DNA of 64,000 bases, taken from positions 642 through 64,641 of the IMG/VR virus record IMGVR_UViG_3300005836_000029. One strand, given 5' to 3'. Shown here one piece after another: positions 4,999-19,964 of the stretch; the first letter of the stretch is position 1; each line of letters begins with the position of its first letter. The translations under genes were made by a program, and so were the position numbers. The DNA comes from a virus. The notes below the pieces were generated by a model, which worked only from the letters and a program-made list of their open reading frames with translations, was not told the DNA's origin and did not search any database.

Positions 4999-7900
4999 AT
5001 GCGAGGACCGTTCGAAGGTACGTGGCAGCAAGGTATCCGACCGACCGTCGTTACGGCTCCGGACGCCCTCGTGTACATCAACGGCGACACGGAACTGGTC
5101 GGATGCGCCTCGTGTCACCGGCGTTTCGACATCAACAAGTACATCACTTCGGTCCAAGTCGACCTCCACGTGGATAGCGTTCCGGGGTCCGCTTCGATCA
5201 ACATGTCGATCCCCCGGCACTCGGTCGACGAGTTCTACTTCGACGGGAACCCTCTGATCACCCCCATGATGGAGGTCGAGATTTTCGCCAAGGGGTACTT
5301 CCTCGTCGAGGGTCTGCCCCAGTACTACCCCATTTTTTGGGGTCTTGTGACGGAAGTCAGCGACAGCTACTCGGGGGGCGAGCACAGCTTCAGCATCAAC
5401 TGTGCCGACATCCTCAAGTGGTGGGAGCTCTGCAAGATCAACACGACGCCTGCTTTCACCCAAGGAGCCGGGCAGCTTGGGCGGAGCATTTTTGGCAACG
5501 TGCTCTTCGGATCGAACCCCTACGACATGATCTGGACGCTGGCTCAGCAATCCTTCGGAGATGTCGTCGTCGGTTCGGGGTCCCTCATCAGTCTCACCAA
5601 GGAATCCACCCAGAGGCAGACCTTCAACGTCGCCCTCGGGGACATCATGCTGTACTGGCAGCAGAGGTTCACACGCATCCGATCGAACCTCATGCTGTAC
5701 GGTACGGCAGGGAATGCCGTTCGTGGGGATATCCTCTACCAGACCTACCAGAAGAACGGAGGTGATCGGCGATACAAGGACAGCAAGTCGGTTCCTTTCG
5801 CCTCGCAGGCCGTGCGTCAGGCAAATGGCGGCACGGAGGGGTCACAGATGGTCTTCGACCCGACTGACCCGGCAGTGACAGCCTTCCGGACCCAGTTCAG
5901 CCAAGCCGGGCAAGTGAACTTCTGGTCGTCCGAGTTCCAGACGAAGCTCGAGATCGCCAACGCCTGCAAGGACGCCATCGGCTTCGAGTTCTTCATGGAT
6001 GTGACCGGCGACATCGTATTCAAGCCGCCCTTCTACAACCTCGACGTTCTCTCCAACAAGCCCATCTCTTGGATCCAAGACATCGACATCATCGATTGGG
6101 ACTTCTCCGAGTCCGAGGCCGAGGTCGTCACCCAGCTCCAGCTCTCCGGATCCTTCGGCGGAAACATCGACTACGGCATGCCCGAGGAGTGCACGCCTAC
6201 AACTTCCGTCACGGACTACCACCTCCTTCGCAAGTACGGCTGGAGGACGCAGACTTTCAACTCGGAGTTCTCGTCGAGCCCCGTGCAGATGTTCAACATC
6301 GGGCTCGACATGCTCGACCGCCTCAATTCAAGGCGTTTCCGGGGGTCCGTCAACATCCCCCTGCGGCCCGAGCTGAGGCTAGGATTCCCGGTCTACATCG
6401 CGCCCAAGGATCAAGTTTGGTACGTCTCTGGCATCAGCCACAACATCCAGTTTGGTGGCAGGGCCCAGACGACCCTGACCTTGACCGCCAAGCGGAGCAA
6501 GTTCGTGGCACCGACGGGCATTGGCTCCCTCAAGGTGTCCTACAGCGGTGGAGGTGGGAAGAATCCATCGGGTCCGTTGTCGACGACCTATTCGGCCAAG
6601 CAGCTTGCGGCTGGGGGCCAGTTCCAAATCAAAGTGGGGGATGCTGCTCAGCTTCCCCCCACGAATCAACAGCTCGAGTCAGCAGCCTCTGGGAACAACC
6701 CCTACGAGCCTCTGGTCCTCCGCCACCCGAAGACCGGTCGGCTCCTCGGCTATCCCAACGTGGTACTGGCCTACACCCGGCCGTTCGTCGACCCTGGGGC
6801 TACCAAGGCCGCCTCGGTACAGGGGCGGAAGGATCCGAATGCCGCACGTGTCGTAGCTCAACAACGCAAGAACGTCCAAAATCAAGGGACGGGGGTCATC
6901 AATGCCCAATATTCGACGGAAGCTCACACAGTCCAGAACGAGGACATCCTCCGTCAGAAGTACCTGAACAATCGGCACAGCTACGGCCTGAACTCGGCGG
7001 GGGTGTATGCGTACCTCTTCGAGCAAACGGCCTATATCAAGGAGATGGTCCTCGTACCGACGAAGAACATCAAGATCGACTCGAATGCCACGACCCTTAC
7101 GAAGAGCAATATCAAGTCCGCCACTGGAAGCACGGGGAACTTCCAGCTCGAGGGGGCCACGGCGATGATTCGCCCCGTGAGCGATGAACGAGGGTTCGAG
7201 GTCATCGGCCACTTCCGGTACGGACGAGGGGTTTCCCTGACCGACGGTTCGCTCATTCTCAACAGTTCATCCTCGGACCCGGGAGCCCTGAACAGCAAAG
7301 CCAACGTCAGCTTTCAACTGGCGATGACAGGGGAGCTCACGGGCACCCTTCAGGCGCAGTCCTCTGGGCTGACGACAGCGAGCGGGCAATCGACCAACCC
7401 TGCCAAGACCATCGCCTCCCTTCAGCCGGAGGACCTCCAGACGGGTGCGTCGATCAATCCCGACACCAAGATTCCGGAGTTCAGTACCCCCGACCAGAAC
7501 TTCGTGGATGCGGCTCCTTTGGGGTCTCCCAAGCAGTCGGGGGCGACGAACACAGGGTCCACGGCGGCCGTTGAAGCAGCCCAACTCTCGCATGCCCTGA
7601 CCCTTGCGGAAATGGCCGTGAGGGAAGCCGTTCCCACGCAGGAGGAGTGCGACTGCCTCTTGGGTCGAGCCGACCTTGGTTTCATCAACGTGGGGTACCA
7701 AATCAGTGTCGTTGGGGTTTCGGGCCCCGTGTCAAGTGCATCGAGCCAGGCTGACTTGGCCTCTGCTCAGAAGTCCTTGGCCAACCTGTCGAGCCTTCAG
7801 GATGCCGCCGTTGCATCCGCTACAGCGGGAGCACCTCCCGACAAAGTATCTCTTCTCACCGTCGAGGCCATCACGGCTTTCCAACAGCAGCATCAAGCAG

Positions 7901-8493
7901 AGATCGATGAGGCCGTGGCCATCACGGGGAATGCCCCAACGTCGACGACTACGAGCGGCCCCGTCCAGGATACGGTCCTCAACATGTCCGTGACCCTTGG
8001 AAGGGTCGAGGGATACCTGACGAACCTCTACCAGGCTCTGGATGTGTCCCATCAGCAGTATGAGGCCGGACTCCGTGGGGATGCGTTGAACTTGCCTCAG
8101 AACAACCCCCAGGACATCCGTTTCGCAACGCCGGACGAATTGTCAGACGTCAGCCCGCCCTTCGGTGGGACAGGGAGGTCCCTGGGTGATCCGATCGCAG
8201 CCGCTCAGACGGCCGTCAACGACTTCAACAACGGCGTCGACAACATGGACAAGCTCGGGAAGTCTCTCCAGGCGCCCCAGAAGCGTGCCCAGTTGCAGCA
8301 AGAGATCGCAGACCTTCAGGGTCAAGTCGCGGATCTCACCAGCCAGCTCCAGGCGGCCCAGAGCAGCGTACCTCCGGCAAGCCCGAAGGAGATCAACCAG
8401 CTCAGCAAGCAGCTCGACCAAGTTGCTCAGAGGCTTGCCAAGAAGCAGCAGGACCTCAACGTACTCAACGCCGAATACCCGCCCACGGGATGA
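4999..8493 (+). CDS. Baseplate hub protein (gp27/gpD-like) with long C-terminal extension
   Basis: ITSVQVDLHVDSVPGSASI, IFWGLVTEVSDSYSGG..FSINCAD, FEFFMDVTGDIVFKPPFYN, GSVNIPLRPELRLGFPVYI...WYVSGISHNIQFGG..TTLTL are hub-type motifs. Sits between initiator and spike genes. Confidence 0.75.
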   Translation: MRGPFEGTWQQGIRPTVVTAPDALVYINGDTELVGCASCHRRFDINKYITSVQVDLHVDSVPGSASINMSIPRHSVDEFYFDGNPLITPMMEVEIFAKGYFLVEGLPQYYPIFWGLVTEVSDSYSGGEHSFSINCADILKWWELCKINTTPAFTQGAGQLGRSIFGNVLFGSNPYDMIWTLAQQSFGDVVVGSGSLISLTKESTQRQTFNVALGDIMLYWQQRFTRIRSNLMLYGTAGNAVRGDILYQTYQKNGGDRRYKDSKSVPFASQAVRQANGGTEGSQMVFDPTDPAVTAFRTQFSQAGQVNFWSSEFQTKLEIANACKDAIGFEFFMDVTGDIVFKPPFYNLDVLSNKPISWIQDIDIIDWDFSESEAEVVTQLQLSGSFGGNIDYGMPEECTPTTSVTDYHLLRKYGWRTQTFNSEFSSSPVQMFNIGLDMLDRLNSRRFRGSVNIPLRPELRLGFPVYIAPKDQVWYVSGISHNIQFGGRAQTTLTLTAKRSKFVAPTGIGSLKVSYSGGGGKNPSGPLSTTYSAKQLAAGGQFQIKVGDAAQLPPTNQQLESAASGNNPYEPLVLRHPKTGRLLGYPNVVLAYTRPFVDPGATKAASVQGRKDPNAARVVAQQRKNVQNQGTGVINAQYSTEAHTVQNEDILRQKYLNNRHSYGLNSAGVYAYLFEQTAYIKEMVLVPTKNIKIDSNATTLTKSNIKSATGSTGNFQLEGATAMIRPVSDERGFEVIGHFRYGRGVSLTDGSLILNSSSSDPGALNSKANVSFQLAMTGELTGTLQAQSSGLTTASGQSTNPAKTIASLQPEDLQTGASINPDTKIPEFSTPDQNFVDAAPLGSPKQSGATNTGSTAAVEAAQLSHALTLAEMAVREAVPTQEECDCLLGRADLGFINVGYQISVVGVSGPVSSASSQADLASAQKSLANLSSLQDAAVASATAGAPPDKVSLLTVEAITAFQQQHQAEIDEAVAITGNAPTSTTTSGPVQDTVLNMSVTLGRVEGYLTNLYQALDVSHQQYEAGLRGDALNLPQNNPQDIRFATPDELSDVSPPFGGTGRSLGDPIAAAQTAVNDFNNGVDNMDKLGKSLQAPQKRAQLQQEIADLQGQVADLTSQLQAAQSSVPPASPKEINQLSKQLDQVAQRLAKKQQDLNVLNAEYPPTG

Positions 8494-8496
8494 CCT

Positions 8497-10791
8497 ATGG
8501 TGATGCGCCAGACCCCCAAAAACGTCATCGGTCATGTCCCTGGAAAGCAATTCACGGACACGGGGGAGCCGTTCGGGCTGAAGGTCGCACTGATCACCCG
8601 GGTCGACGAAGTGAACATGAAAGCCGACCTCCGGATCCTCACGGGTGGAGGCGACCGGTTCGAGATCGACCTCACGCAGGGGATGGTGGGCCCCCGGAGT
8701 TTTTGGGGCGGTGTGCCCGAGGTCAATTCTCTGGCCATTGTCGGCTACCGCCGCCTGTCGAAGACCATCTACGATGCCGTGATCTTGGGCTACATCCCGG
8801 TGGGGAATCGCAGCGGGTTGCGATTCGATCCCTTTTCTCCCATCGACCCGAACGAGGTCGCCACGGAAGACCAGGCAGATGTGAGCGAGCTCGTGGGTCC
8901 GACGAGCCGGCTCAAGAGGCTCATGCTCAACCCTGGAGACGTCGGGGGCATGTCCTCTTCGGGGGCAGAGTTCGTCCTCTCCAAGGACGTGAACTTCACC
9001 AACCGGGCGGGGGACTCGATCGAGCTCCGCGATTCGGACCGTACCCTCGAGACCCACGTGGTTCACAAGGTCGAGAGTGAAGCGGGCATCAAGCGTGTGG
9101 CAGGCCCCGTTCGACGTGGAGGGTTTTTCCTGCCGGACGACCTCTTTTCGAACTCTCCCAACCAGCCGACCATCACGACGCAGACGATCAACGGTGCGAC
9201 CACGACGACGGTCACGCCGTCGCAGGAGTTCTCAGAGGCTCCTACGGGGACCTTCGTCACGTCTTCGAACCCCCTTCAGCTCAAGACCGAGACCACGGAT
9301 GGGTACCTTGGAACCGACGAGCTCCAGGGTGTAGGCCCTGGACTGACCGGTGCTCCGACCAAGTTCGCCAACGACCAGGGCCAAGTCTCGGCCATGTTCA
9401 ACCAGTTCGACACGTATCCCCCGGTCACGTATGCCTCGGGACGTCGTGTCTTCTACGCTGGGACAGGACCTTCGGCGAGCCCTGAGGATGCAGACGCAGC
9501 CGTCGATGCCTTCGTCGAGGACCGCATGGAGATGTACCACACCTCCGACTTGAGCCAGGAGGTCCTCGAAGAGATCGACGGGTTCAACCCTTCGCCGAGG
9601 ACGACCTACATCGAGAGGGTCATCGGCACGATCGTTGGGAACGACCTGACGACGAGCCAAGGAATGCGCCAGTACGGGCAGGTGCTCAAGCCGAACATCT
9701 TTCCGGACTTCACGACCGTCCAGCCCGGCAAGTTCACGCTCGAAGCCGCCGAGAGGTCTGCCACGAACCCAGACCTCGATACGGTGACCTCGGCGGGCGC
9801 ATTCATGTTTCGGATTCGCCCTCCCCGAGGAGTTGGGGGAACCGACTTCGTGGCGGCCGTTTCGAAGCAGGGCAAGTTCTTCCTGAATGCCCCCGGGTCT
9901 GGGGTCGAGGGGTACCCTTCTGGAAGCCGAAACATCTCGGGAGAGATCAACCTCATGGGCGCCTTGAAGGCGTACATCGGAGCAAGTGCCCCCGACCGCA
10001 TTTCGGCTCACGTCACGTGCGAAGGAGGCATCCATCTCGATATTGGTCGGGATGCAGACGGCAACGCCATCACGGTGAGGTACCGGTCGGGCGTCAAGAG
10101 CATCTACGAGGGCAACCCCAACTCCAACGACGTGACTGTCGAGGAGAGCATCATTGGGGTCAAGCAGACGACCATCACGGGGGCAGAGATCACGAGCATC
10201 CAGGGCGCCCAGAAAACGGTCGTGAACGGTCTCGTCGGCTTCGAGTGCGACCGCTTCACCGTGAACGGAAGCGGGGGTGTGACCATCAACGGCGGCGAGC
10301 TGAACATGACGGTCACGGGCAAGAGCCAGCTCCAGTACGCCCTGCCCCTGATCTCGACCATCGTCGCGGGTGGCGAGCTGAAGACGGTCATCGCTGGAGG
10401 TTTCATCCAGACGGTACTCGCTGGAGCCATGGTCTATACGGCCGCCGCCGGAGCCGTGACCTTCAACTGTGCCGCCGGAGCCTTCAACATCGTCGTCGGT
10501 ACGGGGGCTATCGCAGCCAGTACCGGTGCCGGAGCGGTTTCTCTTTCGACGGCCTCGGGAGCTTTGTCCCTGGCGGCTGCTGCGGGTGCTGTGGCTATCA
10601 CCTCGGGGCTCGCTCTGACGTTGACGGCCGGAGCAACCTGTGTGATTTTTGCACCAATTCTCTTGCTCGGAGGTCCGACGGCGGTTCTTGGGGTGGCTCG
10701 AGGTATCCCCACGTTCCCGCCTGGAACCCCGACTCTCGACTACATCACGGGGCTTCCGCTCATGGGAGCCGCGACGGTTCTCTCGAACTAG
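8497..10791 (+). CDS. Baseplate central spike (gp5/gpV/VgrG-spike-like): N-terminal OB fold, C-terminal beta-helix
   Basis: N-terminal LKVALITRVDEVNMKADL...GGVPEVNSLAIVGY resembles the gp5 OB fold. C-terminal Gly-periodic repeats (IxGxxxxx, then xxxAGAxxx). No lysozyme domain recognised. Confidence 0.75.
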   Translation: MVMRQTPKNVIGHVPGKQFTDTGEPFGLKVALITRVDEVNMKADLRILTGGGDRFEIDLTQGMVGPRSFWGGVPEVNSLAIVGYRRLSKTIYDAVILGYIPVGNRSGLRFDPFSPIDPNEVATEDQADVSELVGPTSRLKRLMLNPGDVGGMSSSGAEFVLSKDVNFTNRAGDSIELRDSDRTLETHVVHKVESEAGIKRVAGPVRRGGFFLPDDLFSNSPNQPTITTQTINGATTTTVTPSQEFSEAPTGTFVTSSNPLQLKTETTDGYLGTDELQGVGPGLTGAPTKFANDQGQVSAMFNQFDTYPPVTYASGRRVFYAGTGPSASPEDADAAVDAFVEDRMEMYHTSDLSQEVLEEIDGFNPSPRTTYIERVIGTIVGNDLTTSQGMRQYGQVLKPNIFPDFTTVQPGKFTLEAAERSATNPDLDTVTSAGAFMFRIRPPRGVGGTDFVAAVSKQGKFFLNAPGSGVEGYPSGSRNISGEINLMGALKAYIGASAPDRISAHVTCEGGIHLDIGRDADGNAITVRYRSGVKSIYEGNPNSNDVTVEESIIGVKQTTITGAEITSIQGAQKTVVNGLVGFECDRFTVNGSGGVTINGGELNMTVTGKSQLQYALPLISTIVAGGELKTVIAGGFIQTVLAGAMVYTAAAGAVTFNCAAGAFNIVVGTGAIAASTGAGAVSLSTASGALSLAAAAGAVAITSGLALTLTAGATCVIFAPILLLGGPTAVLGVARGIPTFPPGTPTLDYITGLPLMGAATVLSN

Positions 10792-10793
10792 CC

Positions 10794-11363
10794 ATGCCTA
10801 TCACTCCCCCTGGCGTTGCAGGTGTTGTTGCTCCGAGTCTGGCATCTACAGGTGTCATCGGCCTGAACATGGCCCAACTTGCCCTGGGGGTTGGTATTGG
10901 GGTCACGACCTGGACGCAGCAGATCGTCGTCACCTCCGTCGATACAGGAACCCTTGGTGCAGGAGTAGGGGTTCCGATCCCGGTGATCGTGCCCCCGACA
11001 ATCATCGCGAACATGATCACGGGGTTCGCCTCCTTCGCCCTCATTGGCATCATGTCGCCCTTGGTGGCTACAGGCATCGCCAACGGGATCATCCTGGCCT
11101 ATCTCCAGGGGCTCCTCATCACGGCTCACCCGGGCACAGGGGTCGGGGCAGGGGTTGCGAAGTTCATCGCTCCGCCGGCTGCTCCGACCATCATCGCGGG
11201 TCTGGCCTCGGCCGGCATGATCGGGCTCTCGGTCCCCCAGCTTGGAGGCGCCATCGGCATGGGGCTCGACCTCACCTTTTTGGCCATGGTCATGCCGGTC
11301 GCGATCGTGGGCCCGCCCTCGCCGCTTCCTGGAGGCGGAGCTGGCATCGGCAAGATCGTTTGA
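10794..11363 (+). CDS. Hydrophobic Gly-rich 189-aa protein with three internal repeats; candidate spike-tip protein
   Basis: True start is ATG 10794 (MPITPPGV...), 2 nt after the spike stop; the upstream part of track ORF 10017..11363 is an out-of-frame shadow of the spike gene. Three ~60-aa repeats with core LASxGxIGLxxxQLxxGIGxG. Confidence 0.7.
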   Translation: MPITPPGVAGVVAPSLASTGVIGLNMAQLALGVGIGVTTWTQQIVVTSVDTGTLGAGVGVPIPVIVPPTIIANMITGFASFALIGIMSPLVATGIANGIILAYLQGLLITAHPGTGVGAGVAKFIAPPAAPTIIAGLASAGMIGLSVPQLGGAIGMGLDLTFLAMVMPVAIVGPPSPLPGGGAGIGKIV

Positions 11364-11415: not shown

Positions 11416-11619
11416 ATGGAAAATCCGTGCTTGGGAAGGGTCGTCGACCTGATCGAGCAGCGCCCCGTTCGCAAGAACTCGAAGGGCGACTTGATCGCGG
11501 GCAACACGCAGCAGTACCTCGACCTTCTGCTGTGCAACGCCAAGGGGGAGGAGAAGCTCGTCCGAGTTCCGGTCGAGGCTGACGTGGTGGACTTCTACGC
11601 CGCCGGCAGTCCGGAGTAA
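11416..11619 (+). CDS. Hypothetical protein (67 aa)
   Basis: ATG preceded by ggag, fills the gap before the 1970-aa gene, typical codon usage. Confidence 0.6.
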   Translation: MENPCLGRVVDLIEQRPVRKNSKGDLIAGNTQQYLDLLLCNAKGEEKLVRVPVEADVVDFYAAGSPE

Positions 11620-11624
11620 TCCTC

Positions 11625-14600
11625 GTGGGCTTTCTCCTCACCGGCTACCTGATGGAGCCACCCCGTGTGGGGCAGTCGAACTCGCCGTTCACGTTCACGC
11701 CCAACACGAAAATCACCAATCAGGGGGCCTTCAACTCGGCTTACCCGACGGACGAATCGGTCGACAGGACCGACTACCTCGTGTTCGTCCGGGTCGATGG
11801 CGACTTGCCCGAAGCCATCTTCTGCTGGACGAAGAACGAGACCCTGAACCGGTTCGGCTACGACGGCAAGAACCAGCGTTTCAGGCCGCTTCCTGGTTCG
11901 GCCATCGAGATCGTTGGAACCGTCACGGCGGATGCCAACATGACCCGGTTGAAGGTTCAGGCACCGATCTCCACCGATTTCACCAGTTTCCCGGTTCGTA
12001 TCTCCATCGGAACCGTCGGTAGCGGCACAACGCTCTCGCTCGTACCCGTAGCCGACGAGGCGTCCTTCACGACGCCCTCCGTGGGTTCGGTGCAGGTCGC
12101 CCTCGACACGGGGACCCTCAACTGGAACGCCACGGACCTGACGACGTACGATGCCCAGACCGTTCGGTTCCAGCGGCAGACCTTCTTCGCCTACAACAAG
12201 TCGACCGGCAATATCGGGGTGGTCGATGACACCCTTCTGTTGAATCCCATCCCGAAGACGGGCCAGTTCCCTCTGGTTCGCATTGGCTTCCACGAGTGGC
12301 TCGTACCCATCGAGAAAGCCAACGACGGGTCCCTTTCGCCAGATCCAGTCTCGGGTACGGTCGAGTGGTCCAAAAAGACAGGGCTCCTCAAGTTCAACTC
12401 AGGAGACGTGAGCACCTACACGGGTCGTGCTGCCTACTACGATGGGGTGGTCTTCAACTTCAGCCTTCAGCTCTCCCCGTTCACACTCGGAACCGTACTC
12501 AGCCCCGGGAACCTGTCTCCGGTGCCCCCCGAGCTCGCCGACACCTTCTTTTTGGTCCCCGGGGTCGTCCAGTTCGCCGACACGACCTTCGTCGATGCCT
12601 TCTCCTTGTTCGGGGAACTAGGGGTCGTCGAGGTTCGACGGTCGGACGGCGCCGTCAAGTTTTCCCTGGCAGACGAGGCCATCTACGGGGCATCTTCGGT
12701 CCAGGCGTACGTCCCCGACTTGTCGATCGAGCGAGGCATGATCCTTCGCCTGCGTCGGACGCCCGTTGACCCGGAGGCAACGGACCCCGACCTGAAGGAT
12801 GTTTCGGCCATTTACGAGTCTCTCGATTCGACCTTGGCCGATCCCATCGTCGGCTTTCCGAAGGTCTTCTTGCCTGCTCTCCCGAGCGAGTCCTATTCCA
12901 TCACGGTCCGGGTAACTCAGGGAACGGGGTCCTTCCTCGGGACGCTTCCTCGGCTGGACGTTCCTTCGCCTCCAGAGGGGCTGGGCTACACCCTCGACTT
13001 CGAGAAGCAGGAACTACTCTACGCCCGGCGGAAGAACAACGTCGTTTTCCCTCAGTCGACGGCCAAGCCCTACGGAACCGTGCAGCTATCGGATCCGATG
13101 GTCCTGCCATCGGAGCTTGTTCTCCAGCTCGAGACGGCACCAGGCAGCGGCCTCTACAACACGCTCACGCTCGATGAGGACGTGACCTTCGACTACAACG
13201 CCGGCCTTGCCACGCTTGTCAATACGGTCGGGGAGATCGTCGCGTCCTCGTCTGCGGGGAAGTTCTCAGGGACGACCTTCACGGATACCTCCCAGAACTT
13301 CAGCGTCGCCGGGGTGGTCCCTGGAGACCTCCTGGTGGTCCTCTCCGGCGCCTCGGAGGGCGTCTACACGATCGGCTCGGTGGGAGCGACGACCCTGACC
13401 ACGGACCTTCCAGGGGTGACGGAGAACCACTTGCAGTATGAGGTTCGGCACGGATTCGAGATTCTCGCCGATCGCTACTTCAAAGACGTGCCTCCCCTGG
13501 ATCCGAACACCAAGGTCCAACGTCTCGTCAGCCTCGGGGCGGCTACGAACTCCCCTCGCCTTTCGATTCCCGTGGACAAGATTGGGGTCTCGGGGTTCCG
13601 GAAGGGCAAGACGTCCTTTCTGACCGTGGTCACGGTCTTGAACGATGGGGCCTTCACCTCGCCTCCGACCGGAACGGTTCAGGTGTCCCTCGATACGGGG
13701 AACTTGAACTTCAGTTCGGGAGACCTGGGAGCAACGGTTTACTGGGCCAAGACCCTCGAGATTGGCACCGAATTCAAAATCCAGCCGAGGCTCGGGTTCG
13801 TCCAGTTCACCGATCGCCTCCTGCAAAACGAGGAAGTCCTCGTCACGTACGCCATCCTCGACGACAACGACAACAAGGTCATCATCCAGGAGCGAGGGAC
13901 ATTCTTGGTCCGAAAGGAACTGACGGACCATCCGGCTACGACGAGCACCATCCACTTCAATCCTTTGGGTCGAGAAGTAGCCTCTTCTCCTGAGGCCAAG
14001 GCATTCCGTGGGGGTCGACCCCAAGTCACGGGTACCCAAGTCCAGTTCAACTACTCGAACTCGTCGGTCACCTTTCTCCCGGACAACCAGAAGCAGACCG
14101 TCTTCCCGCACGGGCAGAACATCGATCCAAGCGAACGGATCTACGTCGACTACTACATCTACGAGGCCATCGGGGGCGAAGACAGCCTGACCGTTGCTCA
14201 GCCCCCGATGTTGGGAGTCGCTATCGCGATCCAAGACGGAGACTCCTTCTTCCAAATCCCGGGGGATCGCACGGGAGAATTCCAGGCCAACTTCCTGCTT
14301 CGGGTCGATCGGACGGAAGTCTACCTACTCGCTGCACCGACCTACGATGCGGGGACGGACACGACCACGGTCAACCTGGCGGCGCCCCAGGTCTTCCGTT
14401 CGGACTTCCAGAACCCGGGCCTGGCGATCACCTCGGGGCCTACTCGGGCGGCACCCTCGTTCCTCCTCCCTTCGTACTTCGTGACGGAGTTGCACACGTA
14501 CGAGACGGTCGCACGTGGCTCGAAGACCATGAAGTTCGTGGGGGACCTGTCGGGGGTCTACATCTCAGGGATCGTTGTCCACTGGACGAACGGGTCCGAT

Positions 14601-17537
14601 GCCTTCGACTTCAACTTGGTTGAGGGGTCGACCTACGACAAGACATCGGACCGGACCACCGTGACGTTCACGTCTGGAGGAGCTCGTCAGTACGATGCGA
14701 CCTCCATCACCCTGAAGCGGTCCTCGAACCCCATCCTGCCGAGTCCTGTGGCCAAGGTTCCTACAAACCGCAGCCCCGATCTCACGTTGCCCTACGTCGT
14801 CTTCCGGCGAGTCGAAGGTGAGGTCGGCGTGGTTCTCCACGAGCCCGACGGCTACAGCATCGACACAAGCGGTCTGGTGACCTTCACCGATCCGCTTCAG
14901 GACAACGAGCAACTGGTCATCTGCTACACCGGGGCCCGCATCATCTCGGATGGTCGATCGTTCCGAGCGTCTTACAGCCACAGCATCATCCCCAACGACT
15001 CGAACGGGATGGCCGGCCAAGTCCTCCTGATGGACTACACGACCTTCTCGCCCGACAGCTTCTACTGGCGGGTCGAGAAAATCTCGACCATCCGGTCGGA
15101 GTTGCGAGCGAAGTACAAGAGCGACGCTCAAGCGAGCATCCCTTCCGCCGGTCCCACCTTGTCGAACCAGGCTGGCTCAAAGCTTCAGAACCAGGGACGT
15201 CCCTCGCTCTTCTTCGACGAGGAGCACCTTGCCAACGAGGATGTCGTCGCTCGGGCGACCCTCAAGTTCTACAACGACGGCATCAACTATCTGGAAGATG
15301 CCCTCCGCAGCATGGATGGCCGGGTCATCGGCGGGCACAACGGCAAGTTCCTGTTCGACGGCAACATCGACAACCCGACTCGCACGAGCCTGTCTCAGGT
15401 CACGAACCAGATCGATGACCAGTTGAAGGTGTCCGATGCTCCGGTCGCCATCACCTTCCCGCCCTTCGCCATCACCTTCCTCGGCACCTACAAGAAGATG
15501 TACCAGGTGTCGAAGTTCAGTCGCTTCTACCCGACGCACAGGTATCTCTACGGCGTCGCTGCCTCTCCGACGGGACTCAAGACCGGCGATACGATCCTCG
15601 ACATCGGCTTCCAGAAGCTTGCGGCTGTCAATGCCGTCTATCGGCGTCAACCGTGGGCCATCGTGACGAGGCAGGCCAACATCGGCGATACCCTCATCTT
15701 CGTGGACACGACCCAGGGGCTCGAGGACCTTCTGAGGCCGGCCTTCAATACGGCCGTCTACGGCCATCGGGTCGGGATCATTCGACAAGACGGCATCGAA
15801 TTGGTCCCTTCCTTTTTTCCGAGCGATGTCGTGGGATCGACGGGGACAACCCTCACGCTGGGGACTCCTCTGGCGACGACGGTCCCGGTGGGATCTACGA
15901 TCTACCAGGTCTTGTACGACCTGGGACCCCCGGCAAATCCGTACACCAAGTTCTATCGCCTCTACTTCGACATCGGGGCCAAGCTCGACGATGGGGTGCT
16001 GACGCACATCGAAGCGTTCCCCCCATTCGATGGGACTATTTCGGGATTCCCCGCTGAATTGACGGTCCAAAGCCCTGCTGGCGGGGAGGTTCTGGACGTG
16101 GATGTGGACCTCTTCAACTCGCTCACGGAACCCTATCGGTTCCCTGCTTTGGATGGCGGGACCCACGACGACGACAACAACCGGACGTTCCCGATCCTGT
16201 CCCCCACGACAGACTCGGAAGGAGGGTCCAACGTGGGCTACGCCTACCTCGAGAAGGCCATCATCGGCAGTCCTTCGGGGACTCTCAGGACGGCGACCAC
16301 CTCTCCGTTCGTGGGCACGGGTGACCTTGACGGCACCAGGACGATCATCACGAACTCGGGGGGCCCTTGGCCGTCACCCGTGCCCAAGGTCTACGACCTC
16401 GTGGAGATCCGTTCGGGAACGAATGCCAACTCGGGTTTCCATTCGATCGTGTCGGTAGGAGCCTCCACGATCACGGTCGGTACAGCGTTCGCCACCGTGG
16501 ACACCGGGTTCACGTTCACGGTGACGGTCTCGAACACCCTCGTGACGGGGACCGGGGCCATTTTCGGGACGACTACCCTGACAGACACCCTCGTCGATTT
16601 CCAGTCTTCGGGGGTAGAGCCAGGTCATACGGTTGTCCTGACGACCGGGCCTTATGCAGGCTACCGCCGGCAGGTGGTTTCGGTGGATTCAGCGACACAG
16701 CTCACCATCACGGCTCTGCCCTCCGGAACCTTCGCGGACTATCGGGTCGATGATCCCCTGGGAACCTACGGAGGAACCGGATCGGTCCTCAACAACGATC
16801 TCCTCCCCGCTCTTCAGGGTGAGCTCCTACGGCTCGATACAGGAACCAGCCCTGCTTCGGAGAGGCAAGGGATCGAGAGCTTCTTCAACCAGTTCTTCAC
16901 GACCATCCTCTCTCGCACCACGGGGCAGACCTTCGCCACGACGCAGTTCCAGGATACGGGTGCGAACTTCACCACGGCGGGAGTGGAAGCGAAGCAGTTC
17001 ATCTACATCCGCAACGGAACGATGGCGGGGGTCTACAAGATCGTGTCGGTCGACTCCTCCACGAGCTTGACCATCAGCGAGACCTTCCCGGGAAGTGCGA
17101 GCGGCATCTCTTACAAGATCGTCTCCTCGCAGGGCTTGAACCTGAAGGCTCTCCAAGACACTTTTGGGGTCCTCCAGAATGTCGACCAGGCGATTTCGGA
17201 CACGAGCGCCTTCTACAGCCTTGTGACGACCTCGGTGACCGTGGTGGGAGATTCGGGTGCCTTTGGTCGAAGGACACTCACATCGGACCTCGACAGTCGG
17301 TCGGCCGAGGTTGCGACTCGCATCGCCAACTTGGCAGACACGGGAGCTGGGGATCCCGTTGTCTTGAGCTCTGTTCTCTCTTCGTCCGGCAAGCTTTACA
17401 ACAAGAGGTACGTATGGATCGACGCAAGGACCAACCTGGAGAAGGGAATCCTCCCGAAGAAGGAACGAGCGGAGAGCGACCGGGAGAAGGCGGTGGCCGA
17501 CATCAACAAGCAGCTCACGAAGCTGCTGACAACGTGA
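11625..17537 (+). CDS. Very large (1970 aa) virion structural protein, baseplate/tail associated
   Basis: Beta-rich Thr/Val/Gly composition. Repeated GxVQVxLDTGxLNx motifs and several copies of a 'DxxxNFxxxGVxxGDxxxxxSG..GxYxIxSV...LT' module. C-terminal helical segment. Confidence 0.7.
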   Translation: MGFLLTGYLMEPPRVGQSNSPFTFTPNTKITNQGAFNSAYPTDESVDRTDYLVFVRVDGDLPEAIFCWTKNETLNRFGYDGKNQRFRPLPGSAIEIVGTVTADANMTRLKVQAPISTDFTSFPVRISIGTVGSGTTLSLVPVADEASFTTPSVGSVQVALDTGTLNWNATDLTTYDAQTVRFQRQTFFAYNKSTGNIGVVDDTLLLNPIPKTGQFPLVRIGFHEWLVPIEKANDGSLSPDPVSGTVEWSKKTGLLKFNSGDVSTYTGRAAYYDGVVFNFSLQLSPFTLGTVLSPGNLSPVPPELADTFFLVPGVVQFADTTFVDAFSLFGELGVVEVRRSDGAVKFSLADEAIYGASSVQAYVPDLSIERGMILRLRRTPVDPEATDPDLKDVSAIYESLDSTLADPIVGFPKVFLPALPSESYSITVRVTQGTGSFLGTLPRLDVPSPPEGLGYTLDFEKQELLYARRKNNVVFPQSTAKPYGTVQLSDPMVLPSELVLQLETAPGSGLYNTLTLDEDVTFDYNAGLATLVNTVGEIVASSSAGKFSGTTFTDTSQNFSVAGVVPGDLLVVLSGASEGVYTIGSVGATTLTTDLPGVTENHLQYEVRHGFEILADRYFKDVPPLDPNTKVQRLVSLGAATNSPRLSIPVDKIGVSGFRKGKTSFLTVVTVLNDGAFTSPPTGTVQVSLDTGNLNFSSGDLGATVYWAKTLEIGTEFKIQPRLGFVQFTDRLLQNEEVLVTYAILDDNDNKVIIQERGTFLVRKELTDHPATTSTIHFNPLGREVASSPEAKAFRGGRPQVTGTQVQFNYSNSSVTFLPDNQKQTVFPHGQNIDPSERIYVDYYIYEAIGGEDSLTVAQPPMLGVAIAIQDGDSFFQIPGDRTGEFQANFLLRVDRTEVYLLAAPTYDAGTDTTTVNLAAPQVFRSDFQNPGLAITSGPTRAAPSFLLPSYFVTELHTYETVARGSKTMKFVGDLSGVYISGIVVHWTNGSDAFDFNLVEGSTYDKTSDRTTVTFTSGGARQYDATSITLKRSSNPILPSPVAKVPTNRSPDLTLPYVVFRRVEGEVGVVLHEPDGYSIDTSGLVTFTDPLQDNEQLVICYTGARIISDGRSFRASYSHSIIPNDSNGMAGQVLLMDYTTFSPDSFYWRVEKISTIRSELRAKYKSDAQASIPSAGPTLSNQAGSKLQNQGRPSLFFDEEHLANEDVVARATLKFYNDGINYLEDALRSMDGRVIGGHNGKFLFDGNIDNPTRTSLSQVTNQIDDQLKVSDAPVAITFPPFAITFLGTYKKMYQVSKFSRFYPTHRYLYGVAASPTGLKTGDTILDIGFQKLAAVNAVYRRQPWAIVTRQANIGDTLIFVDTTQGLEDLLRPAFNTAVYGHRVGIIRQDGIELVPSFFPSDVVGSTGTTLTLGTPLATTVPVGSTIYQVLYDLGPPANPYTKFYRLYFDIGAKLDDGVLTHIEAFPPFDGTISGFPAELTVQSPAGGEVLDVDVDLFNSLTEPYRFPALDGGTHDDDNNRTFPILSPTTDSEGGSNVGYAYLEKAIIGSPSGTLRTATTSPFVGTGDLDGTRTIITNSGGPWPSPVPKVYDLVEIRSGTNANSGFHSIVSVGASTITVGTAFATVDTGFTFTVTVSNTLVTGTGAIFGTTTLTDTLVDFQSSGVEPGHTVVLTTGPYAGYRRQVVSVDSATQLTITALPSGTFADYRVDDPLGTYGGTGSVLNNDLLPALQGELLRLDTGTSPASERQGIESFFNQFFTTILSRTTGQTFATTQFQDTGANFTTAGVEAKQFIYIRNGTMAGVYKIVSVDSSTSLTISETFPGSASGISYKIVSSQGLNLKALQDTFGVLQNVDQAISDTSAFYSLVTTSVTVVGDSGAFGRRTLTSDLDSRSAEVATRIANLADTGAGDPVVLSSVLSSSGKLYNKRYVWIDARTNLEKGILPKKERAESDREKAVADINKQLTKLLTT

Positions 17538-17690: not shown

Positions 17691-19964
17691 GTGGCCGACT
17701 GGAAGTCATTTCAGATCCCGATCCCGCTCACGCAGGTCGTCGATCCGATCAAGAGCCTGCTCGAGACCCTGATGATCTTCTTGGAGATCCTCAAGGCCAT
17801 CCTCGAGACCATCAAGATTTTCTTGCTCGACCTCTTGAACCCGATCAAGGCCCTCGTGGAGGCGCTCATCGGGCTGCTCATCGAGCTGATTCAAGCCCTG
17901 TTGGCCTCCGGTTGCTACATCTACTTCGACATCCCAGACCCCGTGAACGACCCCGACTTCTCTCGGGTCGCAGGCGGGTATCCGGCCTTCCTCGAACGGT
18001 TCGAGGGGTCCCTGTACGACACCAAGGATTTCAACCGCCCGCAGCCGAACGACTTGACGACGAGTGGGTTCATTCTCTTCGTCCTCGATGCGGCAAACAT
18101 CATCGAGCTGATCTTGGCCGTGCAGGCCATCATGCGGCTCTTCGGCAAGGCGTGGAAGTCGCCTCGGTATGCCGCCCCGGCCAATGTCAAGGCGATCCCG
18201 GTCGGCACCTCGGGGGATCCCATCTTGGCGGTGACCTCCCTTTTCACGAAGGGACCCATCGAAAAGATCGAACTACAGTGGGACCTGCCTTCGGTCGTCG
18301 AGTCTCCTGACCCCGGCTTCTCGGATGCCGTCACGAAGTTGGCCGGCGAGTTCATTCCCCCCAACTTCCTGATCGAGAAGTCGGTCGACATTCTCCCGAC
18401 CTCCCAGAAGATCGACATCGCAGACCTGGGTACGACGGATTCCGTTGGGCTTGTCCAGGTCGATGTACCGACGAAGTTGGACAAAGCTCTCGCTAGCTCC
18501 TTCGCAAAGGTTCAGGGTACAACGGTCTTCGCAACGCAGCCGTTGAGGGACAACCAGCAGGAACCTGTCATCAAGTTCCAGAAGTACATGAAGGCCGATA
18601 CAACGGCCGGCATCCTGGGAGCTCTGACGGGTACCTTCCGGTTCATCGACGATGATGTCGAGGTCGGGCACGTCTACTACTACCGTATCCGAGCCTACTC
18701 CGGGGACCTCAACCTCGACACGACCAACTTCACCATCGGTGGCCTGCCGACGAGCTACAATGCGCTGACGAGCGGCACCAAGAACAACTCCCAAATCCGC
18801 TTCTTCGAGTGGCCCTCCAGTGGCGATGAAGTAGTGATGGGGAAGCCGTCGGCGGTCGTTCGAGCGACGGTTCCTCCCGACCTTGGGGACTTCGATGTCC
18901 TCGAGAACCTGCGCCGCCTCTTCTTGGTGGCGTTGTCCCTCGACTTCCACATCCCGTTTCCGAGGGACAAGAACGGGGCGGCGGTGGTGTCGGTAGGACC
19001 CCCTGTGATTCCCTTGCAGTTCGATGCGACTGGAAATCCCGTAGCGCCGACGCCTCCGAGTGCTGTCGGCAAGGGGTCCCTGACCAATCAGGCATCCAGG
19101 CTTGCAGGGTTTCAGAGCAGCCTCCTTGTCGGCAAGCTCGCGGGTCTGGACGCTCCGGGCGATGCCTTCAGTGACCCCGGACTGGCAGACCTCACGGTCA
19201 TGCCCTGGCAGCGGTTCAACGTCAGGAACACGGCAGCAAGGCTCGCCAATGGGGTCGCTTCGGCGATGCTCAGTCTCAACGGTGGCGAAGTCACGACCTT
19301 TCAGAACTACATGCAGGGGAACCCTCCACGTGGACCCGTCTCGACACAATTCCAGAATGTGCCAGGGAACCCACCCCTCTCGACACTGAGTGGCATTTGT
19401 TTCGCGTTCACGACTCCTGAGGACCCCAAGGTCACTCCCAACACGAACCAGACGCTCACGACGTTCCTGGCTGCCTACGACGACACCAAGCTTCGGCAGA
19501 ACGTCCTGACGGTCGTGACCTTCCTCAAGAACTTCACCTTGGGTGGCGTTCCCCCGGACTGGATCTCGGTCTCGCCTCTCCGCGACCTCATCCCGTGGGC
19601 GATGGCCTTGCTCTACGACATCGTGGCCAAGATCCAGGCGTTGCTCGACGCCTTCCAGGGATTTTTGGACGAGATCGTCAAGTTCATCGACAACCTGGAG
19701 CGCAAGATCGACGCCATGGAGACCTTCGTCCAGTTCCTGATTGACATCCTCGACTTCATCGAGGACCTGAACTTCGGGGTCTTCGTGTTGGCCGCCAACA
19801 ATCTCAGCGGGGATGTGTCGACCTGGGTGACGACGATCGACGAGGCAACCGGGTCTCCTCCGCCGAGCGGACCAGGAGGGTACACGGCAGGCATCTGCAT
19901 CGCCTACGCGCTCTTCAGCCCGGGAGCCTTGGTCACGGCTCTACAGACGATCTTCGGCGGATAA
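17691..19964 (+). CDS. Baseplate-region protein with terminal hydrophobic/amphipathic helical regions and a central FN3-like domain
   Basis: N-terminus LLETLMIFLEILKAILETIKIFLLDLL...; central IELQWDLP...HVYYYRIRAYS (FN3 signature); C-terminus LLYDIVAKIQALL...FVQFLIDILDFI...ALVTALQTIFGG. Confidence 0.65.
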   Translation: MADWKSFQIPIPLTQVVDPIKSLLETLMIFLEILKAILETIKIFLLDLLNPIKALVEALIGLLIELIQALLASGCYIYFDIPDPVNDPDFSRVAGGYPAFLERFEGSLYDTKDFNRPQPNDLTTSGFILFVLDAANIIELILAVQAIMRLFGKAWKSPRYAAPANVKAIPVGTSGDPILAVTSLFTKGPIEKIELQWDLPSVVESPDPGFSDAVTKLAGEFIPPNFLIEKSVDILPTSQKIDIADLGTTDSVGLVQVDVPTKLDKALASSFAKVQGTTVFATQPLRDNQQEPVIKFQKYMKADTTAGILGALTGTFRFIDDDVEVGHVYYYRIRAYSGDLNLDTTNFTIGGLPTSYNALTSGTKNNSQIRFFEWPSSGDEVVMGKPSAVVRATVPPDLGDFDVLENLRRLFLVALSLDFHIPFPRDKNGAAVVSVGPPVIPLQFDATGNPVAPTPPSAVGKGSLTNQASRLAGFQSSLLVGKLAGLDAPGDAFSDPGLADLTVMPWQRFNVRNTAARLANGVASAMLSLNGGEVTTFQNYMQGNPPRGPVSTQFQNVPGNPPLSTLSGICFAFTTPEDPKVTPNTNQTLTTFLAAYDDTKLRQNVLTVVTFLKNFTLGGVPPDWISVSPLRDLIPWAMALLYDIVAKIQALLDAFQGFLDEIVKFIDNLERKIDAMETFVQFLIDILDFIEDLNFGVFVLAANNLSGDVSTWVTTIDEATGSPPPSGPGGYTAGICIAYALFSPGALVTALQTIFGG

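What the first reader, a model, noticed from the sequence alone, without database searches (positions are those of the whole stretch)
10794..11363. Candidate non-PAAR spike-tip protein: single chain with three-fold internal repeat
Seen: directly after the spike gene is a 189-aa, almost uncharged protein with three ~60-aa repeats (VAPSLASTGVIGLNMAQLALGVGIGV / MITGFASFALIGIMSPLVATGIANGI / IIAGLASAGMIGLSVPQLGGAIGMGL), each followed by a beta-strand and a GxGxG motif. It has no PAAR motif and no Cys/His zinc site. Known: PAAR and gp5.4 tips are monomers with pseudo-three-fold symmetry that cap trimeric spikes. Inference: an independent, helix-containing and membrane-active solution to the same problem.
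Basis: partly seen in the sequence, partly recalled or inferred. Interest (0 to 1): 0.7.

Follow-up and report, generated by a model that had tools for sequence, protein, structure and literature searches.

The report
Greasy three-repeat protein after phage spike
In an uncultivated huge phage, the gene right after the tail's membrane-piercing spike encodes a small, almost charge-free protein built from three copies of one unit; its predicted closed three-fold fold matches no solved structure, and it is probably, but not demonstrably, a new non-PAAR cap for the spike.

Summary
Window 10794-11363 (+) encodes a 189-aa protein with 2 Asp, 2 Lys, 1 His and no Cys. It has three ~62-aa repeats (pairwise z 5-6 against shuffles), each ending in a Gly-rich hairpin.

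It starts 2 nt after the stop of a 764-aa gene. I confirm that gene as a central spike: OB-fold plus beta-helix, with structural hits to P2 gpV, pyocin, VgrG and PVC spikes.

The family is large (483 clusters at 50% identity), nearly always 185-200 aa, and has no Pfam or PHROG match and no literature. In 117 of 118 testable IMG/VR loci it lies next to the spike gene. Contigs reach 529 kb.

AlphaFold2 gives (helix-helix-strand-strand)x3 at pLDDT 94. Foldseek and VIA-align find no matching fold. My own covariation analysis recovers the same contact types between repeats 1-2, 2-3 and 3-1, which indicates a closed pseudo-threefold domain.

Five near-complete relatives have no PAAR, PAAR-like or gp5.4 gene. 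None of 70 spikes has a C-terminal HxH apex motif.

Physical capping of the spike and membrane activity remain untested. Rate covariation with the spike gave no signal, and one divergent genome keeps the gene beside the downstream giant gene without a spike.

This scan reported the same family twice before on other DNA (e1-370501, e1-5410403).

The parts
10794..11363 (+). Three-repeat, nearly uncharged 189-aa protein ('tip189', P0001); stop codon included
   Evidence: There are 80 homologues of ~190 aa and 483 clusters at 50% identity. The AF2 model has pLDDT 93.9 and pTM 0.85.
10794..10979 (+). Repeat 1 (aa 1-62): helix 5-18, helix 24-42, hairpin 45-53/57-59, conserved VDTGTLGxGxG
10980..11165 (+). 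Repeat 2 (aa 63-124): helix 70-80, helix 88-104, hairpin 107-112/118-125, conserved HPxVGVGAGVAK
11166..11360 (+). Repeat 3 (aa 125-189): helix 130-139, helix 146-163, hairpin 166-172/179-188, conserved IVGPPSxxPGAGxGxGKI
8497..10791 (+). Central spike protein (764 aa): N-terminal OB-fold, middle domains, C-terminal triple-beta-helix-type repeats
   Evidence: The family profile gives weak hits to the T4 gp5 beta-helix (E 0.06-0.5, 9 of the 10 listed PDB hits). Seven of 32 homologues hit DUF2345, the VgrG C-terminal domain. Foldseek top hits are AlgoCIS, P2 gpV, R2 pyocin, phi92, VgrG, PVC, AFP and Mu gp45 spikes, mostly at probability 0.9-1.0.
10384..10698 (+). Distal part of the spike (aa 630-734), a 105-residue run with no charged residue; the 60-aa hydropathy maximum is 1.65
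   Evidence: The last 190 aa have GRAVY 0.97 against -0.31 for the rest of the protein.
10627..10788 (+). Conserved Pro-rich C-terminal tail of the spike (aa 711-764; LGVxRGxPxxPPGxPSLD[YW]ITGLPL); no HxH; candidate docking element
   Evidence: Mean distance is 0.81 against 1.12 for the beta-helix segment. The monomer model has pLDDT below 50 here.
4999..8493 (+). 1164-aa protein upstream of the spike, conserved in synteny (probable hub); its residues 301-600 co-vary in rate with the spike N-terminus
11625..17537 (+). 1970-aa giant protein that follows tip189 in every locus where the downstream region is present, including the divergent L036
   Evidence: A weak tail-fibre PHROG hit covers aa 1773-1869.
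17691..19964 (+). 757-aa protein with very hydrophobic termini. It is the only other greasy protein in the module and could shield the greasy needle (speculative).
   Evidence: synteny

Best explanation
tip189 is most likely a virion protein that sits on the three-fold axis of the central spike complex. One chain would fold into a closed pseudo-trimer that caps the distal end of the trimeric spike. This is the role that PAAR/gp5.4 proteins play in T4, phiKZ and T6SS, done here with an unrelated alpha/beta fold.

Shown:
- The fold has three repeats. A central three-helix bundle (second helix of each repeat, Gly-zipper positions) is wrapped by the three first helices. The three Gly-rich hairpins close into a six-stranded barrel.
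- The hairpin end is the most conserved face.
- The gene is tightly linked to the spike gene (2-nt spacer here) and is single-copy.
- The clade has no PAAR, PAAR-like or gp5.4 gene, and its spikes have no HxH apex.

Inferred:
- The conserved hairpin/barrel end docks on the spike terminus, possibly clasped by the three conserved Pro-rich spike tails.
- The charge-free cap and the charge-free last ~105 residues of each spike chain form a greasy needle. It would be shielded inside the baseplate until firing. After sheath contraction it would partition into the host membrane, helping penetration and/or clearing the tube mouth.
For: - Repeats and composition.
- AF2 model: pLDDT 93.9, pTM 0.85, (H-H-E-E)x3.
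- Independent DCA on 253 sequences (Neff 235) gives the same contact types for repeats 1->2, 2->3 and 3->1. Strand b(n) to strand a(n+1): G59-T110 z 10.5, G120-V169 z 6.1, V45-K187 z 5.0. Helix a(n) to helix b(n+1): V8-A102 z 9.8, N73-T161 z 7.3, G32-L137 z 4.8. Core helices: V33-I95 z 9.5, V33-I154 z 4.5. On-axis triad: D50-H112, D50-I171, H112-I171.
- Spike identity.
- Adjacency in 117 of 118 testable loci, mostly 2-20 nt apart. All 8 'spike-only' loci are truncated less than 300 nt after the spike.
- Single copy of both genes in five records of 416-529 kb.
- No PF05488, PF13665 or T4 gp5.4 match in those records and no PF05488 match in the window's own record.
- 0 of 70 spikes have HxH in the last 120 aa. 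PMC12407873 states that spikes without HxH are expected to carry a tip.
- Among 24 module proteins, only the spike's distal end, tip189 and the termini of p757 are strongly hydrophobic.
- Hairpins and turns are the most conserved elements (conservation 0.57 against 0.41-0.46 for helices).
- Precedent for a non-PAAR tip: RB43 orf205w (PMC12407873).
Against: - There is no direct evidence of a spike-tip contact. No complex model could be built.
- Rate covariation between tip189 and every spike segment is flat (partial r at most 0.13; -0.04 with the C-terminal tail). The same test does detect hub-spike coupling at 0.43.
- The spike ends in a conserved ~45-aa non-beta-helix tail that might itself form the apex.
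- In one divergent genome (L036) the gene sits beside the homologue of the downstream giant protein, with no spike homologue in 78 kb. That record is only 47% complete.
- A protein this hydrophobic could simply insert into the host membrane.
- Presence in virions is unknown, because no member of the clade is cultured.
Confidence: 0.5

Rival explanations
1. It is an on-axis or baseplate component bound to another trimeric partner, not the spike tip. One option is a cap or assembly partner of the 1970-aa giant protein encoded immediately downstream. Another is a plug inside the hub or tube lumen.
For: The giant gene follows tip189 in every locus where the downstream region is present. It also does so in the divergent L036, where no spike is nearby. 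The highest partial rate correlation of tip189, although small, is with the giant protein's first 300 aa (0.16). A pseudo-threefold monomer fits any three-fold axis.
Against: The giant protein has no comparably hydrophobic region (60-aa hydropathy maximum 0.87, against 1.65 for the spike end). In 117 loci the gene is coupled to the spike stop. Fibre chaperones are normally soluble and encoded after the fibre gene. The L036 record is 47% complete, so its spike may simply be off-contig.
Confidence: 0.2
2. It is an ejected membrane-active cargo rather than a structural cap. It would be carried in or on the spike complex, then refold in the host inner or outer membrane through its glycine-zipper helices to form a pore or channel for DNA passage or depolarisation.
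For: The sequence has an extreme hydropathy (GRAVY 1.18) and GxxxG-type spacing in the second helix of each repeat (G32/G36, G93/G97, G151/G155; read directly from the sequence). The strongest structural look-alikes, though weak, are membrane transporters (Z at most 4.7). Its location beside the spike resembles that of T6SS spike-loaded effectors.
Against: The helices are short (10-19 aa) and broken by conserved Pro and Gly. The covariation signal supports one compact globular alpha/beta fold. Some family members carry up to 34 charged residues at surface positions, so the fold is not obligately in a membrane. This reading is not exclusive of the cap role.
Confidence: 0.15
3. It is a non-virion host-membrane protein made late in infection, for example a superinfection-exclusion, lysis-timing or assembly-anchor factor, that merely lies in the baseplate operon.
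For: Hydrophobicity is comparable to that of integral membrane proteins. There are no virion data.
Against: There is no signal peptide. K/R residues are almost absent, so there is no positive-inside pattern. The gene is strictly single-copy and syntenic inside the baseplate module across genomes of up to 529 kb. Length is conserved at 185-200 aa and the three-fold globular fold includes a beta-barrel.
Confidence: 0.1

Closest known systems
PAAR-repeat spike-tip proteins (Pfam PF05488; T4 gp5.4, phiKZ gp163.1, T6SS PAAR)
   Same: A small single-chain protein with three internal repeats and pseudo-threefold symmetry. Its gene follows or lies near the spike gene, as gene 5.4 does in T4. A monomeric tip on a trimeric beta-helix is the established arrangement (PMC12407873, PMC13250141). 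The clade lacks any PAAR gene, so the role is vacant.
   Different: There is no sequence or profile similarity. The predicted fold is alpha/beta with six helices rather than an all-beta cone. There is no PAAR motif, no Cys/His zinc site and almost no charge. The protein is twice the size of gp5.4. Binding to the spike has not been shown.
RB43 orf205w, putative large non-PAAR spike tip (Mattenberger et al. 2025 preprint, PMC12407873)
   Same: It is encoded directly after a gp5-type spike in a phage without gene 5.4, and is proposed to replace PAAR. It is a precedent that non-PAAR tips exist.
   Different: It is not homologous (hhalign probability 0.3%). It is 690 aa, polar and mostly helical, with no three-fold repeat.
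Integral apex domains of P2 gpV / phi92 gp138 / Mu gp45 spikes (HxH iron site)
   Same: They do the same job of sharpening the spike end. The window's spike resembles these proteins structurally in its OB-fold/beta-helix part.
   Different: None of 70 spikes of this clade has HxH in the last 120 residues. The candidate tip is a separate gene.
Glycine-zipper membrane-active proteins (e.g. T6SS effectors Tse4/Ssp6; recalled from background knowledge, not tested)
   Same: Gly/Ala-rich, nearly uncharged helices with GxxxG spacing, and a link to a contractile-injection spike.
   Different: There was no Pfam match to any family, glycine-zipper families included. tip189 has a conserved beta-barrel and a compact three-repeat fold.

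Membership tests
PAAR-repeat proteins (PF05488) | Match to the PAAR_motif profile / presence of PAAR motifs | tested here: not met
   hmmscan against Pfam-A at E <= 0.01 gave no family. No PAAR string is present in the sequence.
PAAR-repeat proteins (PF05488) | All-beta conical fold | tested here: not met
   The AF2 model has six helices covering about half of the chain. Foldseek PDB and VIA-align wide list no PAAR chain. For the fold comparison alone that absence is inconclusive.
PAAR-repeat proteins (PF05488) | Single chain with pseudo-threefold symmetry | tested here: met
   There are three repeats. Covariation contacts are cyclic across 1->2, 2->3 and 3->1.
PAAR-repeat proteins (PF05488) | Zn site formed by His/Cys near the apex | tested here: not met
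   The window protein has 0 Cys and 1 His. Family medians are 1 Cys and 1 His, and no Cys is among the 40 most conserved positions.
PAAR-repeat proteins (PF05488) | Binds 1:3 to the blunt end of the spike beta-helix | not testable with these tools
   No multimer prediction is available. Rate covariation gave no signal.
Spike-tip proteins as a functional class | Encoded with a spike that lacks an HxH apex, in a genome with no other tip gene | tested here: met
   0 of 70 spikes have HxH. There is no PF05488, PF13665 or gp5.4 match in 5 near-complete relatives. Adjacency holds in 117 of 118 loci.
RB43 orf205w-like tips | Sequence/profile homology to orf205w | tested here: not met
   hhalign probability 0.3%
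Central spike proteins (gp5/gpV/VgrG type), for the upstream gene | N-terminal OB-fold plus C-terminal trimeric beta-helix | tested here: met
   Profile hits to the gp5 beta-helix. DUF2345 hits in 7 of 32 homologues. Foldseek hits to P2 gpV, pyocin, phi92, VgrG, PVC, AFP and Mu spikes, mostly at probability 0.9-1.0, although E is only 2e-3 to 0.1 and the model's pLDDT is 66.
Ordinary polytopic inner-membrane proteins | TM helices of about 20 aa with positively charged cytoplasmic loops | tested here: inconclusive
   Predicted helices are 10-19 aa. There are only 2 Lys and no Arg. Polar family members exist. No dedicated topology predictor was available.

The most novel reading that the evidence does not exclude
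A previously undescribed protein fold, a single-chain pseudo-trimer of three helix-helix-hairpin units, is the spike-tip protein of a whole clade of 0.4-0.5 Mb phages. Together with a charge-free beta-helix it forms a lipophilic needle. That needle would penetrate or dissolve into the host membrane by partitioning, rather than by the rigid metal-stabilised point used by PAAR and gpV-type tips.
Probability: 0.35. Interest if true: 0.8.

Novelty: new variant of a known kind. Interest (0 to 1): 0.6.

Why it matters
Every contractile injection machine studied so far sharpens its spike in one of two ways. Either it carries a PAAR-type cap, or the spike has a built-in iron-binding apex. RB43 is the only proposed exception.

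A large clade of huge environmental phages has neither. Instead it keeps a strictly conserved, unannotated, nearly charge-free three-repeat protein next to a spike whose distal end is itself charge-free.

If this protein is the tip, it would be a second, structurally independent solution to matching a monomer to a trimeric needle. It would also suggest a different physical mode of membrane entry. And it would give structural biologists a small, well-predicted target (189 aa, pLDDT 94) to test by co-expression with the spike fragment.

The family also deserves a database entry, as it has no Pfam or PHROG model.

Tried and rejected
- Pfam and PHROGs scans of tip189 gave nothing.
- A profile search of PDB sequences with the family alignment gave nothing at E <= 10.
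- Foldseek against PDB and BFVD gave no hit at E <= 1e-3. The only lead was the unnamed 207-aa BFVD entry A0A8S5RUZ0 (probability 0.8, TM 0.35).
- VIA-align against 48,161 chains gave a best Z of 4.7, to helical transporters, which is uninformative.
- tblastn of tip189 against 50,697 phage records gave no match. The low-complexity filter may contribute to that.
- Searches for fused (longer) or single-repeat (shorter) forms found none. The two short hits lie on ~1-kb contigs and are fragments.
- Evolutionary rate covariation of tip189 against 13 segments of hub, spike and giant protein over 70 non-redundant genomes found no specific partner (partial r -0.26 to 0.16). The first attempts failed because the window's tip ORF was taken with an upstream in-frame extension.
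- The first DCA run was dominated by gap artefacts and was discarded.
- RB43 orf205w was tested as a possible homologue and rejected.
- A degenerate-pattern scan of 185,579 species genomes for the VDTGTLGxGxG motif gave 31 matches, none of which encodes a family member. No bacterial or prophage copies were found this way. The 303-aa Myxococcota look-alike cluster from the ESM Atlas could not be retrieved.
- Tunturiibacter phage Tunturi_5 is the only cultured phage matching the hub (23% identity). It has a different tail-tip module and no tip189.
- The coordinates of the AF2 model could not be inspected, so its symmetry was assessed through covariation instead.

Full report
**1. The observation**

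Window 10794-11363 (+) is an intact ORF of 189 codons.
- The upstream in-frame extension to 10017 listed by the ORF finder overlaps the spike gene and is not used. Homologues all begin MP(I/L/V)T, and M1 and P2 are at least 90% conserved.
- The protein has 33 Gly, 25 Ala, 23 Ile, 21 Val and 19 Pro, but only 2 Asp, 2 Lys and 1 His, with no Glu, Arg or Cys. GRAVY is 1.18.
- The three segments aa 1-62, 63-124 and 125-189 align pairwise with z = 5.0-6.1 over composition-preserving shuffles, and 0 of 300 shuffles reach the observed score.
- Each segment ends in a Gly-rich motif.

**2. The upstream gene is a central spike**

The 764-aa protein (8497-10791) has no Pfam or PHROG hit on its own. Three lines of evidence still identify it.
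- A profile of 32 homologues hits, weakly but almost exclusively, the T4 gp5 beta-helix in the PDB (E 0.06-0.5).
- Seven of 32 homologues hit DUF2345, the VgrG C-terminal helix.
- The AF2 monomer model (pLDDT 66) retrieves AlgoCIS, P2 gpV, R2 pyocin, phi92 gp138, VgrG, PVC, AFP, phi812 and Mu gp45 spikes, mostly at Foldseek probability 0.9-1.0.

Its distal part is unusual.
- Residues 630-734 contain no charged residue, and the 60-aa hydropathy maximum is 1.65.
- The chain then ends in a conserved Pro-rich tail, LGVxRGxPxxPPGxPSLD[YW]ITGLPL, rather than a blunt beta-helix.
- None of 70 non-redundant spikes of the clade has an HxH motif in the last 120 residues. According to PMC12407873, spikes with a C-terminal HxH have a built-in iron apex, and spikes without it are expected to carry a separate tip protein.

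**3. The family and its context**

- A word-indexed search found 80 homologues, nearly all 187-195 aa.
- An exhaustive HMMER search over 1.84 billion cluster representatives found 483 clusters at E <= 1e-3 and 270 at E <= 1e-10. Among the 150 listed, almost all are full-length matches of 185-200 aa.
- No fused or single-repeat forms were found.
- ESM-Atlas neighbours are three unnamed, more than 93% viral clusters.
- The window's record is a 66-kb fragment of a virus (CheckV completeness 14%). Relatives lie on IMG/VR contigs of up to 529 kb, several with terminal repeats and 100% estimated completeness. This is therefore a clade of huge phages.
- The gene order 273 aa - 577 aa - 1164 aa - spike - tip189 - 1970 aa - 757 aa is conserved.
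- 126 IMG/VR loci were fetched with either the tip or the spike as bait; some contigs appear in both sets. Of these, 117 have both genes, mostly 2-20 nt apart. All 8 spike-only loci end less than 300 nt after the spike.
- About 15 loci carry a 0.4-1.2 kb insert between the two genes. In the two examined it encodes basic ORFs; those in L023 carry an HNH-like motif, judged by eye.
- In five records of 416-529 kb, spike and tip189 are each single-copy and adjacent.
- Those five records have no match to PAAR (PF05488), PAAR-like (PF13665) or T4 gp5.4.

The one exception is L036, an AT-richer contig of 78 kb from a genome estimated 47% complete.
- There tip189 follows unrelated genes (an amidase, an fn3-rich protein and two unknowns).
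- It is still followed by a homologue of the giant protein (E 2e-5, colinear).
- No spike or hub homologue is detectable in that record. Its Baseplate_J gene lies 38 kb away.

**4. Structure**

AlphaFold2 with 75 sequences gives pLDDT 93.9 and pTM 0.85. The topology is (helix a - helix b - strand a - strand b) three times. I could not inspect the coordinates, so I tested the architecture independently with mean-field DCA on 253 nearly gap-free family sequences (Neff 235). The top couplings are inter-repeat and cyclic.
- Strand b of repeat n pairs with strand a of repeat n+1: G59-T110 (z 10.5), V58-I109, G120-V169 (6.1), A122-M167, V45-K187 (5.0), L54-G180.
- Helix a of repeat n packs on helix b of repeat n+1: V8-A102 (9.8), N73-T161 (7.3), F78-A153, G32-L137 (4.8).
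- The three b helices contact each other: V33-I95 (9.5), G32/V33-I154 (4.5).
- Equivalent residues D50, H112 and I171 couple pairwise, as expected for positions on a pseudo-threefold axis.

Contacts of the same kind appear for 1->2, 2->3 and 3->1, so the domain is closed, not an open solenoid. It has a six-stranded barrel at one end and a 3+3 helical bundle at the other.

Foldseek (PDB, BFVD) and VIA-align over 48,161 chains find no convincing match; the best Z is 4.7, to transporter helices.

The hairpins and their GxGxG turns are the most conserved part (0.57 against 0.41-0.46 for helices). This points to the barrel end as the functional face.

The family as a whole is very poor in charge (median 7 charged residues). 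A few members carry up to 34, located at recurring positions that are presumably surface-exposed. The fold therefore behaves like a globular domain whose surface is usually greasy, not like an obligate transmembrane protein.

**5. Function**

Arguments for a spike-tip cap:
- The gene position parallels T4 gene 5.4.
- The spacer to the spike stop is 2 nt, with no evident Shine-Dalgarno sequence. This suggests translational coupling and would favour immediate assembly of a protein too greasy to stay soluble alone.
- A one-chain pseudo-trimer matches a trimeric axis.
- The tip role is otherwise vacant in these genomes, and there is no HxH apex.
- Composition matches. Of 24 proteins in the structural module, only the spike's distal end, tip189 and the termini of the 757-aa protein are strongly hydrophobic.

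Arguments against, or missing evidence:
- No complex could be modelled.
- Rate covariation over 70 genomes shows no specific coupling of tip189 to any spike segment. The same analysis does recover hub-spike coupling (0.43).
- The spike's own conserved tail could form the apex.
- L036 shows that the link to the downstream giant gene can outlast the link to the spike.

I therefore put the cap model at about 0.5. The alternatives are another three-fold partner (0.2), an ejected pore-former (0.15, not exclusive of the cap role) and a non-virion membrane protein (0.1). 'Membrane-active' is an inference from composition only.

**6. Comparison and novelty**

The protein works, if at all, like PAAR/gp5.4, but it fails the sequence, fold and zinc-site criteria of that family. 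It shares only the pseudo-threefold single-chain design.

It is unrelated to RB43 orf205w, the one published candidate for a non-PAAR tip (hhalign probability 0.3%; PMC12407873).

No paper found in five full-text searches describes the family.

Within this scan the same family has already been reported twice on other DNA, with the same reading (e1-370501 and e1-5410403). It is therefore not new to the project.
- the covariation evidence for a closed three-fold architecture;
- the HxH census of the spikes;
- the gp5.4 and PAAR-like searches;
- the hydropathy census of the module;
- the negative rate-covariation result;
- the L036 exception.

Noticed in passing
L023:9032-10011 and L003:9244-9985 (between the spike and tip189 homologues): About 15 of 117 relatives carry a 0.4-1.2 kb insert between the spike and tip genes. 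In L023 it encodes two basic ORFs with an HNH-endonuclease-like motif (..CPIT..PF..G.GK..SLDR..P.LGYVPGN..). This looks like homing-endonuclease insertion, reminiscent of segC between T4 genes 5.1 and 5.3. The motif was judged by eye, not by a profile search.
   Followed up: partly
window 17691-19964 (+): The 757-aa protein has very hydrophobic N- and C-terminal regions (60-aa hydropathy maximum 1.48 at residue 22; a 39-aa uncharged run at residue 719). Apart from the spike end and tip189 it is the only greasy protein in the module. It could shield the greasy needle, as the gp174 pin ring surrounds the phiKZ spike. This is speculative.
   Followed up: partly
window 4999-8493 and 8497-10791: Rate-covariation analysis shows specific coupling of hub residues 301-600 with spike residues 1-200 (partial r 0.43). 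Hub residues 601-900 couple with spike residues 401-710 (0.35-0.46). This suggests that the middle of the 1164-aa protein contacts the spike shaft.
   Followed up: partly
window 11416-11619 (+): A 67-aa ORF lies between tip189 and the giant gene. It has recognisable homologues in only 5 of about 125 related loci (e.g. L026, 63% identity). In most relatives the giant gene starts within about 20 nt of the tip189 stop.
   Followed up: partly
L048 (PP885688.1, Tunturiibacter phage Tunturi_5) 11962-14613: This is the only cultured phage with a detectable relative of the 1164-aa hub-like protein (23% identity over 43%). It is a 309-kb phage of an Acidobacteriota host from tundra soil. That gives a weak hint about the host range of the wider group. 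It has no tip189.
   Followed up: partly
tip189 residues D50, H112 (window 10941-10943, 11127-11129): A nearly invariant Asp and a widely conserved His occupy equivalent positions in repeats 1 and 2. They co-vary with each other and with I171 of repeat 3, which places a polar pair on the pseudo-threefold axis of an otherwise apolar protein. It might be an ion or partner-binding site.
   Followed up: no
L131 (G006:C1:22000-41000) and L036: In the divergent 78-kb record the sheath-initiator and Baseplate_J genes lie 38 kb away from the tip189-giant gene pair. The baseplate genes are therefore split into at least two clusters in that lineage.
   Followed up: partly
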